Positions 1 through 8,210 of a stretch of DNA of 64,000 bases are shown in pieces (position 1 is the first letter of the stretch; the number at the start of each line of letters is the position of its first letter). The notes under the pieces are model-generated. The model ran no database searches. It was not told the DNA's origin and worked only from the letters and a program-made list of their open reading frames with translations. Origin of the DNA: the human T2T-CHM13v2.0 reference genome, Homo sapiens; NCBI RefSeq assembly GCF_009914755.1, contig NC_060930.1; one strand, written 5' to 3'. A program made the translations under genes and the position numbers.

Positions 1-722
1 GGGCTGCGAAGCTGCATTAGCTGTAGTTTGTCTCCTGTGAAGTCTCAGCTCTGCAGTGAGGCTCAGGCAGCCCAATGACGAAAGGCCTTTGGCGAGCCTT
101 GCTGATAAAATGAGCAGGGATATTCACAGAGGTGCCCCCTCACTGTCTGCCAAAACACTGAAGGATTACTCAGCATGCTTGGTGTCAGTTCAGTGTACTT
201 ATTTCCACCTAATTATTTAAAAATAACCATGTATGATATAATTTGGATGGTGCTCAAACCTATAGCCTGAGGGGAACCAAATTTGAGAGCCCCAGCATGT
301 TTTCCCAGCAATTCTGCTACTGCAGCCTCTCTCCCAGGCCTTCTTCCTCCCACTGAAAGACAACAAGATCCTTCCTGTCCCGTTTCCTCATTTGGCCAAG
401 GGGTTGGTGTGGGCCACTTTGGTTCCAAAGATCTTGAGAGACCCTCCCATAAAATTTTGGTGTCTTAACTGGATTGTGACAAATTGTTGAGAACCAAGAG
501 TACATATGGTAACTGGAATATGAGATGAACTAGAAAGTCTCATGTACTGACTTGAATTGAGCACTAGTCACTCTGTTTTCTGGACATGTCAATTAATTAG
601 GTAGAAAGCTGAAATCCCTGCTAAAAAGTGTGCTCTCTCTTCTGCTGCAGTATTGACATCTGTATTTCAGAAGAATGTTTTAAATGGGCATTTTTCTTGC
701 GGGGGGGTTGGGCATTCTTTAG

Positions 723-848
723 GACAAACCTCTGGAATTTTTGTCGTATTTTCTGCTGAAGAAATGTGGCAAAAAGATCAAAGATGTTGAAGGAAATGTT
801 ATTCCAACAAAATGTGACCCAAAGACAACATTCAGTTTATTCATGAAG
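723..848 (+). CDS. ECT2L: Candidate in-frame ECT2L cassette exon, DKPLEFLSYFLLKKCGKKIKDVEGNVIPTKCDPKTTFSLFMK
   Basis: ctttag acceptor (AG 721-722), AAG|gtaaag donor (GT 849-850), 126 nt open, phase 0/0 matching the next exon. Not in the human ECT2L sequence as I recall it. Confidence 0.6.
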
Positions 849-1263
849 GTAAAGTTGCTGCTGAATTTTTATGCCATTGCTTTTCTGTAGAGTTAGGCAC
901 ATGTGATAAAGAAATTCATAAATCATTATATGAGCTCTACTGGGAAGCTTTAACTTGTCATTTCTCCAAAGAATTTTATTTTCATGAAGTATTACTAAAA
1001 TAGGGTGTTTTGTAGTTTCATAATATGAGTAACATTTAAGCCGCTTAAAAGCATAAACTGCAACATGTTAACTTGAGTAACACTATTTGGTTGTGGGGAG
1101 AAAGGTAGAAATTTGCATTTTGCTTTGACATTTATGCAATTGAGCCCTGAGAGAACTTAAGGGGAATTTTTTTTTGAGGGAGGTGAAACTAAGAATAGTT
1201 CTTTTTTTTTCTTAGTTGAGATTCAAATTCATTAAAGAAAAAAATGGGTTTAAAGCGAGTTCT

Positions 1264-1600
1264 GGCTGGGCGCGGTGGCTCACGCTTGCAATCCCAGCAC
1301 TTTGGGAGGCCCAGGCGGGCAGATCATTTGAGGTCAGGAGTTTGAGACCAGCCTGGCCAACATGGTGAAACCCCGTCTCTACTAAAAATACAAAAATTAG
1401 CTGGGCATCGTGGCATGCCTATAATCCCAGCTACTCAGGAGGCTGAGGCAGGAGAATCACTTGAACCCAGGGGGGTTCAGTGAGCCAAGGTTTGCTTGAA
1501 CCCGGGGAGGTTCAGTGAGCAGAGGTTGCAGTGAGCCAAGATCGCACCACTTTACTCCACCCTGGGTGACAGAGTGAGACTCTGTCGTAAATAAATAAAA
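1264..1600 (+). mobile_element. AluS with internal right-arm duplication
   Basis: GGCTGGGCGCGGTGGCTCAC start, A-rich linker, (TAAA)n tail. Confidence 0.95.
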
Positions 1601-2060
1601 CTAGTTCATCAGGCCAAAAAGAATAATTTTGCCAGTACTATATTAGGAATCCAAGCATTCTTGTTTACATGAAATAACCAGGATTCAAGAAATGCTGAGA
1701 ATTACATTGTCGTTCACATAACTGATTTCTATGTAGGGGAAAATACTGTTTTAGAACCATTTTATGTCCATAGAAAAGTCACCTGTCTTTGATGTTTGAA
1801 GGCGTAGGATGGCAGTCCCTAACACAATCTCACCATGGAGGGCTGCTAGGAGTAAGAGACTTGTGAGCACCTCTAGCAGGCAAATCATTTGTTGCCCTAT
1901 TAACCTGATATTCTGGAAGTATTTGTTAATGCTTCTTTAAAGGACAGTGCAGGGCAGGGCAGGAGCAGACATAGAGAACTGCTGGAGGCAGCATTCCCTC
2001 TGCCTGCTGCCCCAAATGAACTCAGCAGCACACGGCCTGCCGTCATTAAGACCCATCCTT

Positions 2061-2385
2061 GGCCAGGCGCAGTGGCTCACGTCTGTAATCCCAGCCCTTT
2101 GGGAGGCAGAGGTGGGTGGATCACTTGAGGCCAGGAATTTGAGACCAGCCTGGCCAACATGGTGAGACCCCGTCTCTACTAAAAATACTAAAATTAGCCA
2201 GGCATGGTGGGGCACACCTGTAGTTCCAGCTACTTGGGAGGCTGAGGCAGGAGAATCGCTGAACCAGGGAGGTAGAGGTTGTAGTGAGCCAAGATCGCGC
2301 CATTGCACTCCAGCCTGGGCCATAGAGTGAGACCCTATCTCAAAAACAAACAAACAAAAAAAAACAAAACAACAACAACAAAAAA
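2061..2385 (+). mobile_element. Alu (S-type)
   Basis: Full dimer, A-rich tail. Confidence 0.95.
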
Positions 2386-2500
2386 CCCTACCCTTCTGCT
2401 GTTACCATAGCACAACCCTTACTTTAATCCTCCCCTCCCCCACAAAGTGCCCAAGTGGCTTATTCTTCCCAAACACAAGCAACTCCCTGAGACAGGAGTC

Positions 2501-2675
2501 TTTATTTTATTTTTTAATTTTTTTTTTTGAGATGGGGCCTCGCTCTGTCACCCCATGCTGGGGTACAGTGGCACAATTATAGCTCACCATAGCCTTGAAC
2601 TCCTGGGCTGAAGCCATCCTCCTGTCTCAGCCTCCCAATGTGCTGGGATTACAGGCCTGAGCCACCACGCCTGGC
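2501..2675 (-). mobile_element. Alu monomer (FRAM-like)
   Basis: Poly-T followed by a single antisense Alu arm. Confidence 0.85.
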
Positions 2676-3904
2676 CATCCCAAGAGGAGTCTAAATGCCT
2701 TTCCAGGGATATCTAAGCCCTTTACAGGTTGAAGCCCTGCTTGCTGGCTGCCCTGCCCCCAAATCGGTATTTTCAGGAAACTTCTCAGGCAGAGGGCAAT
2801 TCCTCATCTTTTTAGTTCCATTCTCTAAATATTTGCAGGAGCTAACCAGCTAACCACATGCTAGACCTTCTGCTAAATCCTGGGACTAGACAGCAAAGTA
2901 AGACAGTTCCTGCCTTTGTGGAGGATGAGGCTGATACACAAATAGGTGGTGCAGCATGATTAGCGCCTGTTAACAGAACGCACGGGCTGGGATGGGAACC
3001 CCGGGGTGGGAACGCCAGATGGGCATTTAGTCCAGACTCCTCTTTCTGCTTCTCAGAGGCTGCTGCTTTCATCTCATTATGCCAGCCACCATCTCTTTGA
3101 AATTCTTGGAGATTATTCTCCCAAAAGGGTGGACATAGTCTCCATCCATCCTTTAGCCTATGAAAACCTGAAAAACAGCACCCAGGCCTCTAATACCACT
3201 CATTTTCCCTTGGTTCACTAAAGGGAATGATCAACATATAACCACATTACACAGGTTCCAAATTCTTCCAAAGTCCTTTCAACATCTGCTGATTCCTGAC
3301 TCCCTGGAATCCTTATTGGATTCTTTCACCCACCTTTATTCCTAAGGGTGAAGCTATTACCTCGAAACCCAGGCATACAGATCCCAGAAAACCCCCTCTT
3401 TGGAGCAAGAAAGCAATAAGGACCAAACTAAGGTGCTTCCTCCTCTGAAGTGCCACTCTCACATGTGAAAGACCTAACTCTTGGTGAGAACCATTTCTGG
3501 GCTCATTGAAACCTAAGGGAATGATCACTTGGAGCAGTTCCTCTGAGGCACTTTCTCCTCTAGTTCCTCTGCCAAATAAAATTCAAAATGAATGAAGTCT
3601 TTTCAACTGGCTATTGATCCGAACAGCTCATTATGTTCATAAAATAATGCATGAAATTTGGGCTGAAAGTTCCTCATTGCTGGAAATCAGGCCCTCTATT
3701 GCTACATTGTCTGCCTGTAATAAAACTGGAAAAATGCAAAACTCCTTAATGCCTGGAAATTTGATTAAAAAAAAATCGAATTAGAAAAAAATACATATTA
3801 GATTCTCATTTGATTCTCTACTATTTAACACTAAAGAGCTTGGGCACAAAGCCCACAGAACAAATGCGGAGACCTCTAGGAGGAAGAACCACAGCTAAAC
3901 GTCA

Positions 3905-4360
<456 letters not shown>

Positions 4361-4408
4361 ACCCTCCCAGAGAGGCTTGTGTAATACGGATTATCTGTCA
4401 AATCCAGG

Positions 4409-4410
<2 letters not shown>

Positions 4411-4450
<40 letters not shown>

Positions 4451-4510
4451 TGTGTGTGTGTGTGTCCATCCATGTATCCATCTATCCATCCACCTACCTA
4501 CCTACCTATC
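4411..4510. repeat. (TG)n microsatellite followed by TCCA/TACC tetramer repeats
   Basis: Direct reading. Confidence 0.95.
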
Positions 4511-5361
4511 ATCCTGCTGCCCAATCATTATTTGCTCCTGGTTTTTGTCTGCCTATAATGTTTACACTGATACCATGCAACCATGGTGATGGCTGCCCGC
4601 CAGAATTATAGTTGTTCCTGAACTCTACCTGTCATTTTCACAACTATTTCTGGCCCCTTATCCAGGCAGCTGAGTGTTTGCTGGCAGAAGCATCAGCAAT
4701 GACTAGAATGTCTCTGGAAAATAGTGTCTGCCCATGCTCCATCCTAGAGAAAAATTCCTAACATGTTCTTTGTGAGCTTTTTTTTAATGGTCTTCCTTAT
4801 ATGTCCCGCAGAGCCAAGGCAAAGACCCACCAACCCAGAATGATAGTTGTCTTATAAATGTGCAAAGTTTCTGCCATGTTACTTCCTCTGAATTCATCCA
4901 TAAAAACTAAGTAAAAGATAGCATCGGAATCTAAAATTAAGCTGTAAAAATTCTGGCAATTAAACATATAATATAAAATGAGTGAACTTGCCAATTTTAG
5001 GTTCAAACAAAATTACTATGCCAAATCAATGTCCTATCCACAAAGAAAAAATTATATTTAAAAAAGTAAGTTGCTGCTGAGCCGGAATGTGAAACAAAGC
5101 CCAACTGTAAGCGAGCAGGTTCTAAAATAGCCAAGGTGGTCTGGGGGGGTCCATGATGACACCTGAATTTTAATGCATAAATTTTCATGTGAGCCTGTAC
5201 AGTCAGGTGATCTCCCAGAGAAAGATGGCTCCCTTATCTGTGAGATCCACAATACAATTGTGTGCTGTTTGGGTTATCTTAATCTTGGCCCAACCTGAGA
5301 GTTTTGTTTTTGTTTTTTGAGACAGTCTCACTCCATCATCCACGCTGGAGTGCAAGATACT

Positions 5362-5654
5362 GGCTGGGCACAGTGGCTCACACCTGTAATCCCATCACTT
5401 TGGGATCCCAAGGCAGGAGGAACACTTGAATTTGAGACCAGCCTGGGCAACATAGTGAGACCTTGTCTCTAAAAAAAAATGAACAAAATTAGCCAGGCAT
5501 GGTGGCACATGCCTGTAGTCCCAGCTACTTGGGAGGTTGAGGTGGGAGATCAATTGAGCTTGGGAGGTCGAGGCTGCAGTGAGCAAATATTGCACCACTG
5601 CACTCCAGCATGGGTGAAAGAGTGAGACCCTGTCTCAAAACAAAACAAAAACAA
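5362..5654 (+). mobile_element. Alu (J-type), preceded by an antisense Alu 3' fragment at 5301-5354
   Basis: Alu consensus match. Confidence 0.9.
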
Positions 5655-6388
5655 GTAGATCTCCTCCCTGGCTCCAAGCCATAAGTATGGATACATGCCA
5701 GGCTGGTATGAGACAGCCACAAGTGCAGAGGACAAAAGAAATCATTAGAAGACTCCCTGGAGCAGACAGGAAGCACTCAGGCTCAGGTGGGACCTCCTGC
5801 CATCTGGGACTGAGCTAGCTGGCTGCAGGTTTGCAGACCAGGGTTCTTCTGCAGAGGCTCAGGCTGCCAGAGCAATGTGGCATCTCCAAAATAAAAATTC
5901 GCTTTTGCCTCAGTAGAGTAAGGTAAAAGGAGCCTTAGTTACAAATTGAAGTTATTCTTCCAGCCTCATCCCTGGACATCCAAGGGTTGCCATTGGTAGT
6001 TTTGTCTTTGATGAGGAAGGCAGCAATAACGACCATTGACCATCATCATCCCTCAACATAAACACAGGACCACTGCTGTGTTGCTAGGGTAGACCCTGGG
6101 GTGCTGCAGGCAGCAGGGGTGGGGGTGGAGGGCTTTAAAAAAATGTGCTAAGTTTGAGAGAGGCCACAGCAAGAATAGTTAACAAGGTAAAGTGAAGAAA
6201 GAATAAGCCTTATTTAAATGTGCAGGTCTAGAAAGGTTATGTGAACTGTTTATGACACATTTTCACTTGGTGGTGAAAAAAGGAGTGAGTTTTGTGAGCT
6301 TTTCCTTCTGGATCTTAAAAATAAAAATAACCTATTTGCCCTCAACTGAGAAGGAACAGAGCAGAGCTGAGGCAAAAACCTGTTACCT

Positions 6389-6696
<308 letters not shown>

Positions 6697-7021
6697 TTAC
6701 CCAGGAATGTGTGTGAGTCTTTAAGCCTGGGAGGAGCCCCAGCCCAGCATCACTTCCCTGGCTCCCAAGGAAGAGGGAGCTACGCTGGATTTAGTTCTCA
6801 AGTATTATGTAGTTCAAAAGAAGCAAAGGCTATTTTTAAAAAACATAAAATTGAATGTAAGAGTGGCATCCCATTTGCAAGCACTTAACTCATTGTGTGT
6901 AGGGAACACTGTGGTTGGGGCTGAAGGCAGAGGCTTCTGAGGGCCTCCTGCGGGCACAGTACTGAGTTTTCAGAGATGTCAAGACCTGCCTCCAATAACC
7001 AAGTTTCCATTCAATCTTCAG

Positions 7022-7108
7022 GAAAGAAATGTTGTAGAAGACAATTCTTGGGACACAAAGTCCAGGCTCAGCAAAAATGATTTAAATTTTGAAGCACTGA
7101 TTAATCTG
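7022..7108 (+). CDS. ECT2L: ECT2L exon, [29 protein letters not shown]
   Basis: tcttcag acceptor, CTG|gtaagc donor, 87 nt, phase 0/0. Confidence 0.93.
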
Positions 7109-8210
7109 GTAAGCTATTATATAATGTAACTTTACCATTGGTTTTGCTCCTGATAGTGAAATTTCAGCCTTTATTCTGGTTAGTTCTTCATTTTCCTTGA
7201 AAATTTCCCTTTGGGGGATTAAAAAAAAAAACCTCAAAAATTATTAGAGAGAATTCAGCTGGCAGACTTTTTTTTCAAATAAGCCCCAGACTGAAAAGAA
7301 GTTGAGCCAGAAGGATAGCAGTGTAACATCTTGGAGCAAAACCAATCTGTATGTTACTCCCTGACTTTCCTTTATGGTACTAGGATGTCTTTTAAAGAAA
7401 TGGCACATGGACAAAGGCTCACAGTTTCTAATTAATCTACCAACTTACAGTCTGACTTCAAAAGTTGAATCTAATGAACACAATGTCTAGGGCTCCGTCT
7501 TTCTGTGTCAAGGGTAAAGTGTGGAGGAAGCTGCAGCCTCAGCAGGGGCCGGTCTCGTCCTGTGTAACCCACGGCATGGGCACACTGTTTTGTTTTCTTC
7601 AACACACAAACACACTTATTATCACCTTTCATTCTCAGAATCCTATAAAGGACACATCCCTAGCCACATTTTATAGATAAAGAACTAGAGTTAAGAAAAG
7701 TTACATGGGGGAAAAAAGTCAAATGACTTCCCTAAGGCCAGACAATTGGGCAAGAAAAATCTTAAGTCCTGCAGCCCTGAGCTCAGACCTGGGGCTCTTT
7801 CCCAGCCCCAGACACCCTGGCTGCAGACAGTGCAGGCCGTGGAGCCCCAGGACATGGATGCCCACTTGCCCCAAACCCATCCCTAGGAACACCCAGGAGG
7901 AGCATGTTCCATAGAGCAGTGGATATGAGGGTATCTCATCTGACTATTAGTAATAATACCTCATAGTGGTTTCAAGATAACAACACAAGGTTTGACAATG
8001 AAAACCTTAGTTCAAAATGATTATAAATGTTGGATAACTCCAATATGTAAAAATATATACATACAGAAATACACATATAATATTAAAAAAATAATATGGA
8101 CTGTAAGCCAACTGCCAAGTAGGATGCAGATGTATTTTTTACCTTATTAGATATGTCTAAATAGGTATTCTAGACAGACCATGTGTTTGGAAAATAAACA
8201 AGAAGAGTTT

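What the first reader, a model, noticed from the sequence alone, without database searches (positions are those of the whole stretch)
661..860. Hidden in-frame ECT2L exon resembling the second helix of a Dpy-30/RIIa docking motif, with a G-run-disrupted acceptor
Seen: 723-848 is a 126-nt open, phase 0/0 exon with a good donor (AAG|gtaaag) encoding DKPLEFLSYFLLKK. The polypyrimidine tract is broken by G7 (701-707) and gggc. A competing acceptor at 669-670 (tatttcag) would give a 178-nt exon with a stop at 788-790. Recalled, not in the window: human ECT2L reads ...ALADGLMELSKEDS|ERNVV..., skipping this exon. Inference: joining gives ALADGLMELSKEDSDKPLEFLSYFLLK, which parallels the DPY30 motif [26 protein letters not shown]. 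Such motifs dock on AKAP-like helices and are common in ciliary proteins. ECT2L may therefore carry a splice-switchable, or lineage-eroded, dimerization/docking domain just before the DH domain.
Basis: partly seen in the sequence, partly recalled or inferred. Interest (0 to 1): 0.8.

Follow-up and report, generated by a model that had tools for sequence, protein, structure and literature searches.

The report
ECT2L cassette exon completing Dpy-30 domain
An already annotated, optional 42-codon exon of the human cilia-linked gene ECT2L supplies the second helix of a small Dpy-30-type pairing-and-docking module, so including or skipping the exon probably decides whether the protein carries that module.

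Summary
Window 723-848 is a real, in-frame (phase 0/0) 126-nt cassette exon of ECT2L, as described. It is not hidden: the hub's RefSeq table lists it as an exon of other human transcripts. Of 158 stored placental ECT2L models, 135 include it and 23 skip it.

Joined to the constitutive upstream exon (window -1367..-1264, ending KEDS in phase 0), it supplies the second helix of a Dpy-30-type helix-loop-helix.
- Pfam PF05186 spans the junction in 15 of 18 inclusion-form orthologues (3 over the cut-off; the ape/human-like segment scores 14.4 bits) and in 0 of 6 skip forms.
- A profile of 20 inclusion segments finds solved DPY30, NME5, DYDC2, AK7 and Sdc1 chains (best E 4.8e-5). A skip-form profile finds none.
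- AlphaFold2 gives a hairpin that superposes on DPY30 (Z 4.5-6.2). The skip form gives one long helix.

The acceptor is the most pyrimidine-poor of 22 in the window. G-rich sequence also precedes the exon in other mammals, so 'disrupted' and 'eroded' are not shown.

Dimerisation and docking are inferred; the complex predictor was unavailable. Verdict: new member of a known kind, moderate interest, raised by a 2026 preprint placing an ECT2L dimer at the ciliary transition zone.

The parts
686..712 (+). G-rich stretch in the 3' end of the intron: GGG 686-688, G7 701-707, GGG 710-712. It interrupts the pyrimidine tract and is a candidate splicing-regulatory element. One part of the feature lies outside the window and cannot be listed as a row: the constitutive upstream exon at window -1367..-1264 (L009 2633-2736). 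That exon encodes the first long helix of the motif and ends in phase 0.
   Evidence: G7 alone is not above chance. G-rich codons precede the exon in ORF fragments of other mammals.
713..722 (+). Short pyrimidine run and acceptor (cattctttag).
   Evidence: Pyrimidine fraction 0.45 over -23..-4, the lowest of 22 acceptors in the window.
723..848 (+). 126-nt cassette exon, phase 0/0, 42 codons.
   Evidence: Listed in the hub's RefSeq table as an exon of other transcripts. Present in 135 of 158 stored orthologue models.
723..767 (+). Codons for DKPLEFLSYFLLKKC, the second helix of the Dpy-30-type hairpin.
   Evidence: Mean identity to human 0.91 over these 15 positions against 0.62 for the other 27 (55 unique sequences). 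Aligned to the [12 protein letters not shown] helix of DPY30.
849..854 (+). Donor gtaaag.
   Evidence: It matches 7 of 9 consensus positions, within the 5-8 range of the other internal exons in the window.
669..670 (+). Upstream AG (tatttcag). Used as an acceptor it would give a 178-nt exon with an in-frame TGA at 788-790. No annotation uses it.
   Evidence: hub table.
7022..7108 (+). Next ECT2L exon (87 nt, phase 0/0, starts ERNVV). It is joined directly to the upstream exon in the skipping form.

Best explanation
Window 723-848 is a placental-conserved, in-frame cassette exon of ECT2L. The constitutive upstream exon (window -1367..-1264) encodes the first long helix and the loop of a Dpy-30-type helix-loop-helix. 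This exon encodes the second helix (DKPLEFLSYFLLKK) plus a less conserved 27-residue linker that leads towards the DH (RhoGEF) domain.

Including the exon gives ECT2L a complete Dpy-30-type dimerisation/docking module about 70 residues before the DH domain. Skipping it, as in the selected human transcript, leaves half a motif that cannot form the hairpin.

By analogy with DPY30, NME5, DYDC and AK7, the complete module should pair two ECT2L chains into a four-helix bundle that binds an amphipathic helix of a scaffold protein, probably in motile cilia. The weak, G-rich acceptor makes inclusion dependent on regulation.

Shown here: exon structure and phases, conservation, sequence homology to Dpy-30 domains, the predicted hairpin, and loss of all three signals in skip forms. 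Inferred: dimerisation, docking, the ciliary partner, and the role of the G-rich stretch.
For: Exon anatomy and phases:
-.

Conservation:
- 135 of 158 stored placental models that hold the upstream exon include the 42 codons and 23 skip them.
- I saw the exon in printed sequences from primates, colugo, tree shrew, rodents, pika, carnivores, pangolin, bats, horse, rhino, pig, ruminants, hippo, elephant and tenrec.
- Exon lengths among 63 unique upstream-plus-exon sequences are 42 (55), 41 (6), 40 (1) and 38 (1) residues.
- Five unbiased ORF fragments from other mammals are open through the exon.

Homology to Dpy-30 domains:
- PF05186 spans the junction in 10 of 12 and 5 of 6 full-length inclusion forms.
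- It is over the 22-bit cut-off in 3: P0018 at 25.6, P0041 at 24.5 and P0040 at 22.2 bits.
- 20 of 20 60-residue segments hit it at E<=10, best 4.5e-7.
- The profile of those 20 segments against all PDB sequences returned 22 distinct sequences at E<=10. One is ECT2L itself. Twelve are named DPY30, Dpy-30 motif protein or DPY30 domain-containing protein 2 (E 4.8e-5 to 0.095). Eight are named NME5, NDK, AK7, Sdc1 or KLLA0E03521p, which I recall to carry Dpy-30 domains. One unrelated chain appears at E 1.1.
- The alignments cross the exon junction.

Fold:
- AlphaFold2 on the 20-row alignment gives helices 7-15, 17-32 and 38-57, with pLDDT 87-92 over residues 21-50.
- The first 25 Foldseek rows are entries that hold Dpy-30-domain proteins, by title or by my recall of their subunits.
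- VIA-align gives Z 4.5-6.2 over 42-51 residues for nine of them, 3.4 for one more DPY30 chain (7ud5_P), and at most 2.9 for unrelated rows.

Controls with skip forms:
- 0 of 6 skip forms have a Pfam Dpy-30 hit at E<=10.
- The skip-form profile finds only ECT2L itself in the PDB.
- The skip-form model is one helix 2-41 followed by coil, pTM 0.37.

Context:
- Passages read in bioRxiv 10.64898/2026.06.11.731632 assign an ECT2L dimer to the transition-zone doublet of bovine tracheal cilia.
- Passages read in PMC4199137 report that zebrafish ect2l knock-down affects motile cilia.
Against: - The human/ape-like segment scores only 14.4 bits (E 0.032), under the Pfam cut-off. Full-length Pongo, Trachypithecus and Arvicanthis forms gave no Dpy-30 row.
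- The exon peptide alone matches no Pfam family and no PDB chain.
- A six-frame PF05186 scan of the human genome listed 15 places at E<=10, none at the ECT2L locus.
- Foldseek E-values are all 1 or above, and Z of 4.5-6.2 is modest for a helical hairpin. Mean pLDDT is 74.
- The orthologue proteins are gene models, and the set is biased because two of the three searches were seeded with the exon.
- The selected human transcript and the deposited 904-residue chain are the skip form (hub table).
- No non-placental orthologue was seen (one search listed 120 of 364).
- No expression or junction data could be examined.
Confidence: 0.72

Rival explanations
1. The exon is real and homologous to Dpy-30 domains, but in human it is a vestige. 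The major isoform skips it, inclusion is splicing noise from a weak acceptor, and the module no longer functions in the human lineage.
For: - The selected RefSeq transcript skips it (hub table), and the deposited ECT2L chain is the skip form.
- The acceptor has the lowest pyrimidine content of 22 in the window.
- The ape-type motif scores lowest among those scanned.
Against: - The human exon is intact.
- Its first 15 residues are identical to those of bat-type orthologues that pass the Pfam cut-off.
- Skip forms are also modelled in carnivores and a mole, where inclusion forms exist too. Skipping is therefore not a human peculiarity.
- RefSeq keeps a human transcript with the exon (hub table).
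Confidence: 0.2
2. The exon is coding, but the likeness to Dpy-30 is a chance or convergent amphipathic helix-loop-helix. The region is a linker or a regulatory segment for the DH domain, not a dimerisation/docking module.
For: - Most orthologues are under the Pfam cut-off (15 of 18).
- Structural scores are modest.
- No dimer could be predicted or measured (tool unavailable).
Against: - The reciprocal profile search returned Dpy-30-family chains almost exclusively (20 of the 21 non-self sequences).
- The invariant positions P38, L39, E40, L42, F45 and L47 of alignment A1 fall on the PIEFLxxYLL core of DPY30.
- Three orthologues pass Pfam's curated cut-off.
Confidence: 0.08
3. 723-848 is not an exon at all, only a chance open frame with splice-like flanks.
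For: An open frame of 42 codons has a prior of about 0.13 in random sequence (own arithmetic).
Against: - RefSeq lists it as an exon (hub table).
- 135 orthologue models include it at the same junctions, 133 of them exactly adjacent to the upstream exon.
Confidence: 0.01

Closest known systems
DPY30 (COMPASS/MLL subunit) C-terminal dimerisation/docking domain, Pfam PF05186; solved in entries 3g36, 4riq, 4rt4
   Same: - Helix-loop-helix with the ...GL..L.KE.P.NP[IL]EFL..[YF]LLK core.
- The ECT2L segment profile hits it at E 6e-5 to 2.6e-4.
- The predicted hairpin superposes at Z 4.6-5.6.
   Different: - In ECT2L the module is internal, in a 959-residue F-box/DUF4347/DH/PH protein, and half of it sits on a cassette exon.
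- The loop proline pair of DPY30 is reduced (ENP-DKP in bats, EDS-DKP in apes).
- DPY30's own intron in the loop is phase 2 and 4 nt away in the alignment, so the intron is not shared.
- Dimerisation and ligand binding are untested for ECT2L.
Ciliary Dpy-30-domain proteins NME5 (radial spoke), DYDC2, AK7 and central-pair DPY30; entries 8j07, 9fqr, 7n6g, 9nw3, 8wzb
   Same: - Matched by the ECT2L profile: NME5 at 1.2e-3, DYDC2 at 0.095, AK7 at 0.39.
- Matched by fold.
- ECT2L is also cilia-linked.
   Different: - These proteins carry the motif constitutively at an end of the protein, which I recall rather than tested.
- ECT2L's assignment is to the transition zone, not to spokes or the central pair. 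The preprint does not say which ECT2L domain was fitted.
PKA RII-alpha dimerisation/docking domain (RIIa, PF02197) and AKAP docking
   Same: The same kind of X-type four-helix bundle that binds an amphipathic helix. This is established knowledge that I recall, and it is the mechanism proposed here.
   Different: No RIIa family row for any of the 20 segments at E<=10. ECT2L is of the Dpy-30 type, not the RIIa type.

Membership tests
Dpy-30 motif (Pfam PF05186) | Score at or above Pfam's curated cut-off (22 bits), tested on orthologues | tested here: met
   P0018 scores 25.6, P0041 24.5 and P0040 22.2 bits. That is 3 of 18 full-length inclusion forms over the cut-off; 15 of 18 show a sub- or supra-threshold row.
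   The Pongo segment is identical to human from its first residue through the first 19 exon residues, which covers the whole motif. It scores 14.4 bits, E 0.032. Full-length Pongo gave no row at E<=1.
Dpy-30 motif (Pfam PF05186) | Reciprocal similarity to proteins with solved Dpy-30 domains | tested here: met
   The profile of 20 segments hits DPY30 and 9nw3_7A at 4.8e-5 to 2.6e-4, and NME5 at 1.2e-3. 20 of the 21 non-self sequences belong to the family (12 by name, 8 by recall). The skip-form profile hits none.
Dpy-30 motif (Pfam PF05186) | Helix-loop-helix fold superposable on the DPY30 domain | tested here: met
   The AF2 hairpin has pLDDT 87-92 over residues 21-50. The Foldseek top rows are Dpy-30 chains with TM 0.5-0.7, but E>=1. 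VIA gives Z 4.5-6.2 against at most 2.9 for unrelated rows. This is a prediction, not a structure.
Dpy-30 motif (Pfam PF05186) | Homodimer forming an X-type four-helix bundle | not testable with these tools
Dpy-30 motif (Pfam PF05186) | Binds an amphipathic helix of a partner | not tested
RIIa (PF02197) | Sequence match to the RIIa profile | tested here: not met
   RIIa is not among the 8 families matched by any of the 20 segments at E<=10.
Conserved cassette exon | Length a multiple of 3, with phase 0 on both sides | tested here: met
   126 nt. The upstream exon ends in phase 0 and the downstream exon starts in phase 0.
Conserved cassette exon | Both inclusion and skipping forms annotated in one species | tested here: met
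   In human, the hub table shows a selected transcript without the exon and another transcript with it. Lutra lutra has X1 (959 aa) and X2 (917 aa), and Canis and Mustela each have both forms; in Ursus the inclusion and skip models come from different species. All of these are gene models.
Conserved cassette exon | Measured inclusion in transcripts | not testable with these tools
   No RNA-seq data were available.

The most novel reading that the evidence does not exclude
The cassette exon is a switch that decides whether ECT2L dimerises through a Dpy-30-type bundle and docks on an amphipathic helix of a transition-zone scaffold.

[quoted passage not shown] It would be made only by the exon-including isoform. 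Models built on the human canonical (skip) sequence would then miss the very domain that anchors a RhoGEF/F-box enzyme at the ciliary gate.
Probability: 0.15. Interest if true: 0.75.

Novelty: new member of a known kind. Interest (0 to 1): 0.5.

Why it matters
- ECT2L is a poorly studied protein that combines an F-box with a RhoGEF. It is linked to motile cilia and, in a recent preprint, to the transition-zone linker as a dimer.
- A Dpy-30-type dimerisation/docking module would give a concrete mechanism for that dimer and for anchoring the protein.
- Half of the module lies on an optional exon that the reference human isoform lacks. Structure predictions, interaction screens and variant interpretation based on the canonical 904-residue form would therefore all miss it.
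- In the held library, no paper links ECT2L to a Dpy-30 domain. The search for ECT2L with 'Dpy-30' found 0 papers. The search for ECT2L with 'DPY30' found 1 paper, an unrelated gene list.
- Pfam's precomputed annotation already flags the domain in two orthologue records, so this is a database-visible but undescribed feature rather than a new kind of thing.

Tried and rejected
- **Exon peptide alone.** It matched no Pfam family and no PDB chain, even at E<=10. Half a motif is too short.
- **Whole-library phmmer with the 42 residues.** 14 hits at E<=0.001. Six are mammalian ECT2L or naive ORF fragments of the same exon. Eight are repeat-rich unrelated proteins: five of the six I scanned showed zinc-finger, HYR or SdrD repeats and the sixth (P0069) only a weak GldM row; two were not scanned. 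No Dpy-30 protein was found this way.
- **Six-frame PF05186 scan of the human genome.** 15 places at E<=10, none at ECT2L.
- **Protein atlas look-up of the Pongo segment.** No usable hit.
- **Shared intron with DPY30.** Rejected, because the positions differ by 4 nt and in phase.
- **G7 as a rare signal.** Rejected as such: 6 found against 5.3 expected.
- **G-quadruplex at 686-712.** It is predicted only in a 42-nt context, not in the 100-nt fold.
- **RNA fold of 661-760.** z = -1.94, and 8 of 200 shuffles fold as well, so the signal is weak.
- **Rfam over window 1-8000.** Nothing.
- **Search for non-placental orthologues.** The third homologue search listed only the best 120 of 364, all placental.
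- **Literature searches.**
  - One search was badly framed (any 2 of 5 terms) and gave nothing on ECT2L.
  - (ECT2L with 'splicing') gave 27 papers. I opened one from its listing; it mentions ECT2L only as an eQTL gene.
  - A search for the entry code 11xu found no paper.
Full report
**1. The observation**

- A short pyrimidine run ends in tag at 720-722, so the acceptor AG is at 721-722.
- The exon runs from GAC at 723 to AAG at 848 and is followed by gtaaag.
- G7 sits at 701-707 and is followed by ttgggc.

Frame 1 of 723-848 is open for 42 codons and starts DKPLEFLSYFLLKK. A stop-to-stop listing shows that this frame opens exactly at 723, because the acceptor's tag is an in-frame stop. The AG at 669-670 would give a 178-nt exon that runs into TGA at 788-790.

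- I fetched 74 kb upstream and ran tblastn with a capuchin orthologue. This placed every ECT2L coding exon and put the preceding one at window -1368..-1264.
- Reading it shows an acceptor ...tttacag|GG, the text ...ALADGLMELSKEDS, and TCT|gtaagt, so it ends in phase 0.
- The exon at 7022 begins GAA AGA AAT (ERN) in phase 0.

The exon is therefore a clean 0/0 cassette.

**2. It is not hidden, and it is not human-specific**

The hub's RefSeq table lists 723-848 under 'exons of other transcripts' of human ECT2L.

A word-seeded search with the 42 residues against longer proteins returned 62 proteins. Fifty-eight are named ECT2L (or, for one bat record, a hypothetical DH-domain protein) and come from primates, carnivores, bats, pig and horses; four have no name. 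Two further searches, seeded with Ursus arctos residues 495-590 and 495-720, added these groups:
- ruminants, hippo, camelids and pangolins;
- colugo, tree shrew, pika and hedgehog;
- many rodents, lemur and loris;
- elephant and tenrec.

In a script I classed the stored models of more than 500 residues that hold the upstream exon. Of 158, 135 include the exon, 133 of them exactly adjacent to the upstream exon, and 23 skip it. The skip forms read ...SKDNS|ERNV..., exactly like the human selected transcript. They come from bears, panda, dog and relatives, walrus, otters, ferret, a seal and a mole. Several genera also have inclusion forms: Lutra lutra has X1 (959 aa) and X2 (917 aa), and Canis and Mustela have both; among bears, Ursus arctos carries the inclusion model and U. 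maritimus and U. americanus the skip models.

Caveats:
- All of these are gene models.
- The set is biased, because two of the three searches were seeded with the exon.
- Only the best 120 of 364 hits of the last search were listed, all placental.

I can therefore say nothing about marsupials or non-mammals.

**3. Pattern of conservation**

Among 63 unique upstream-plus-exon sequences, the exon is 42 residues long in 55, 41 in 6, 40 in 1 and 38 in 1. For the 55 of full length, mean identity to human is 0.91 over the first 15 positions and 0.62 over the other 27. The human first 15 residues (DKPLEFLSYFLLKKC) are identical to those of the bat-type orthologues P0018 and P0041.

Five short proteins from the representative library are plainly naive ORF translations of genomic DNA from other mammals. 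They are open through the whole exon, run on past the donor (MKVKLLL...), and begin before the acceptor.
- They show that the intron flanks are conserved too, which is common around regulated exons. That generalisation is my own knowledge, not a test made here.
- They show G-rich codons just before the exon: ...GGGGGIFQ|DKP in P0067 and ...GLGVWIFQ|DKP in P0017. Human reads ...GGLGIL*|DKP in that frame.
- The G-rich stretch is therefore not a human lesion. Those species have CAG where human has TAG at the acceptor.

**4. What the exon encodes**

The exon peptide alone matches nothing in Pfam or in the PDB sequences. Across the junction the picture changes.

*Pfam.* PF05186 (Dpy-30 motif, 42 positions, cut-off 22 bits) aligns positions 7-40 to the last 19 residues of the upstream exon plus the first 14-15 of this exon.
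- It does so in 10 of 12 full-length inclusion forms and in 5 of 6 more.
- Scores are 25.6 (P0018), 24.5 (P0041, Molossus), 22.2 (P0040, Myotis), 18.4 (Lutra), 18.3 (Echinops), 17.9 (Ursus, Bos), 15.4 (Ochotona), 14.8 (Equus), 14.2 (Elephas), 14.1 (Sus), 12.7 (Saccopteryx), 12.2 (Sapajus), 11.8 (Callithrix) and 11.7 (Hipposideros).
- Pongo, Trachypithecus and Arvicanthis gave no row.

*Segment alignment.* I cut 60-residue segments from 20 orthologues to make alignment A1, mean column identity 85%.
- All 20 segments hit PF05186 at E<=10, best 4.5e-7.
- The Pongo segment is identical to human from its first residue through the first 19 exon residues, which covers the whole motif. It scores 14.4 bits, E 0.032.

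*Reciprocal test.* I searched the A1 profile against 177,635 distinct PDB sequences. Besides ECT2L itself it returned:
- Dpy-30 motif protein 9nw3_7A at 4.8e-5;
- human DPY30 in ten entries at 6.1e-5 to 2.6e-4;
- NME5 at 1.2e-3, DYDC2 at 0.095, AK7 at 0.39 and yeast Sdc1;
- a single unrelated chain at E 1.1.

The printed alignments run from profile position 16-18 to 50-55. They therefore cross the junction at 35|36 and place the ECT2L PLEFLSYFLLK on the [11 protein letters not shown] of DPY30.

**5. Fold**

AlphaFold2 on A1 gives helices 7-15, 17-32 and 38-57, with mean pLDDT 74 and 87-92 over residues 21-50.

Foldseek against the PDB finds no match at E<=0.001. Its first 25 rows are nevertheless entries that hold Dpy-30-domain proteins, by title or by my recall of their subunits. 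They include 4riq, 4rta, 4rt4, 3g36, 7n6g, 8j07, 9nw3, 8wzb, 6chg, 6ven, 9ijj, 7ud5 and 9fqr, with TM 0.4-0.7. VIA-align on those rows gives Z 4.5-6.2 over 42-51 aligned residues for nine such entries, 3.4 for one more (7ud5_P), and at most 2.9 for the unrelated ones. For a 45-residue hairpin this is consistent with the family, but it is not strong on its own.

**6. Controls with the skipping form**

- 0 of 6 full-length skip forms show any Dpy-30 row at E<=10. In the same call, 5 of 6 inclusion forms do, including the Lutra X1/X2 pair.
- A profile of nine skip-form segments (A2) finds only ECT2L itself in the PDB and no Dpy-30 protein at E<=10.
- AlphaFold2 turns the skip segment into one long helix 2-41 followed by coil, pTM 0.37.

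Skipping therefore removes all three signals.

**7. Splice signals**

I compared the 723 acceptor with the 21 annotated acceptors in the window.
- It has the lowest pyrimidine fraction over -23..-4: 0.45, against 0.50-0.90 for the others.
- It has the most G in that stretch: 10, against at most 6.
- Its donor matches 7 of 9 consensus positions, which is ordinary.

This fits an exon whose inclusion needs help. It does not show that the G run is the cause. G7 itself is at chance frequency in the window, 6 found against 5.3 expected.

Tracts at 686-688, 701-707 and 710-712 fit a long-loop G-quadruplex pattern. This is one of 6 such places on the plus strand. The 100-nt minimum-energy fold does not use it. 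That fold instead pairs 669-680 with 686-697, which buries the competing AG, and pairs the G run with 749-756 in the exon. It is only weakly better than shuffles: z -1.94, with 8 of 200 shuffles as good. No Rfam family matches in 1-8000.

**8. Context from papers**

- No paper in the held library contains both ECT2L and 'Dpy-30'.
- The one paper with ECT2L and 'DPY30' mentions them in unrelated passages.
- Passages read in a June 2026 preprint (bioRxiv 10.64898/2026.06.11.731632) assign 'a dimer of ECT2L' to the B-tubule of the transition-zone doublet of bovine tracheal cilia, as one end of the transition-zone linker. [quoted passage not shown] The passages do not say which residues were fitted. 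I could not see the figures or supplements.
- Passages read in PMC4199137 report that zebrafish ect2l is a gene whose knock-down shortens kidney-tubule motile cilia.
- Passages read in PMC5499878 treat ECT2L as an old Dbl-family member that was lost in several lineages.
- The PDB copy holds a 904-residue ECT2L chain in two copies (entry code 11xu in this copy) whose sequence is the skip form. No paper mentions that code.
- The bovine models I saw (P0132, P0133) include the exon.

**9. Mechanism proposed**

Shown here:
- a conserved 0/0 cassette exon;
- a junction-spanning Dpy-30-type motif by sequence and by predicted fold;
- loss of the motif on skipping.

Inferred from what is established for DPY30, NME5, DYDC and AK7 and for the related RIIa domains:
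- the complete hairpin pairs with a second copy into an X-type four-helix bundle;
- the groove of that bundle binds an amphipathic helix of a scaffold.

On this reading, the inclusion isoform of ECT2L would be a dimeric, docked RhoGEF/F-box protein, and the skip isoform would lack this means of pairing and docking. I could not test dimerisation, because the complex predictor was unavailable.

**10. Comparison and verdict**

By sequence and predicted fold this is a Dpy-30-type module, not an RIIa-type one. It is a member by Pfam's own cut-off in three bat-type orthologues and a sub-threshold member in the rest, including the human-like form.

Three of its labels do not hold:
- 'Hidden' is wrong.
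- 'G-run-disrupted' is unproven.
- 'Lineage-eroded' is not supported for the exon itself.

Novelty: a new member of a known kind. It is visible to automatic annotation in two records (P0018, P0041) but is not described in the papers I could search. Interest is moderate. It would rise if the exon-including form proves to be the one at the ciliary transition zone.

Noticed in passing
window 7022-7148: The hub lists an alternative exon 7022-7148. Reading through the donor at 7108 gives VSYYIM and then a stop at 7127-7129. No GT follows 7148, so this looks like a terminal, intron-retaining end that would truncate ECT2L before the DH domain.
   Followed up: partly
window 7022-7108: The 87-nt exon after the cassette is itself skipped in some orthologue models. 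P0043 (Halichoerus) and P0042 (Molossus) go from the cassette exon straight to ERKLQ... It is therefore a second 0/0 cassette next to the first.
   Followed up: no
window 669-697 and 699-756: The predicted RNA fold pairs 669-680 with 686-697, which buries the competing AG at 669-670. It also pairs the G run with 749-756 inside the exon. z = -1.94, and 8 of 200 shuffles fold as well.
   Followed up: partly
window 686-712: Four G3 tracts with loops of 12, 1 and 2 nt fit a long-loop G-quadruplex pattern right at the 3' splice site. This is one of 6 such places on the plus strand of the window. It is predicted only in a 42-nt context.
   Followed up: partly
L010 and L011 (G000 C2, DPY30 locus): The DPY30 gene also splits its motif by an intron in the inter-helix loop (AAG GAA AG|gtaaga ... 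cag|A CCA CCA AAT). That intron is phase 2 and lies 4 nt upstream of the aligned ECT2L site, so the two introns are not shared.
   Followed up: yes
orthologue P0104 (Galeopterus), junction before the cassette exon: The colugo model carries four extra residues (GVFQ) before DKPLE, meaning an acceptor 12 nt further upstream. The matching human 12 nt end in the in-frame stop TAG, so human could not use that site in frame.
   Followed up: no
orthologues P0025, P0028, P0082, P0130, P0131 (Canis): Dog-family models carry a 24-residue insert (KSSCCFCCRFITKVVPDLEWIIQG) between the two exons upstream of the cassette. This is a further alternative exon or a retained piece, and it is not present in the human tblastn map.
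   Followed up: no
PDB copy, entry code 11xu: A 904-residue chain named ECT2L is deposited in two copies. Its sequence at 492-528 is the human-type skip form. I could not learn which residues are modelled or which paper it belongs to. The preprint cites a different code.
   Followed up: partly
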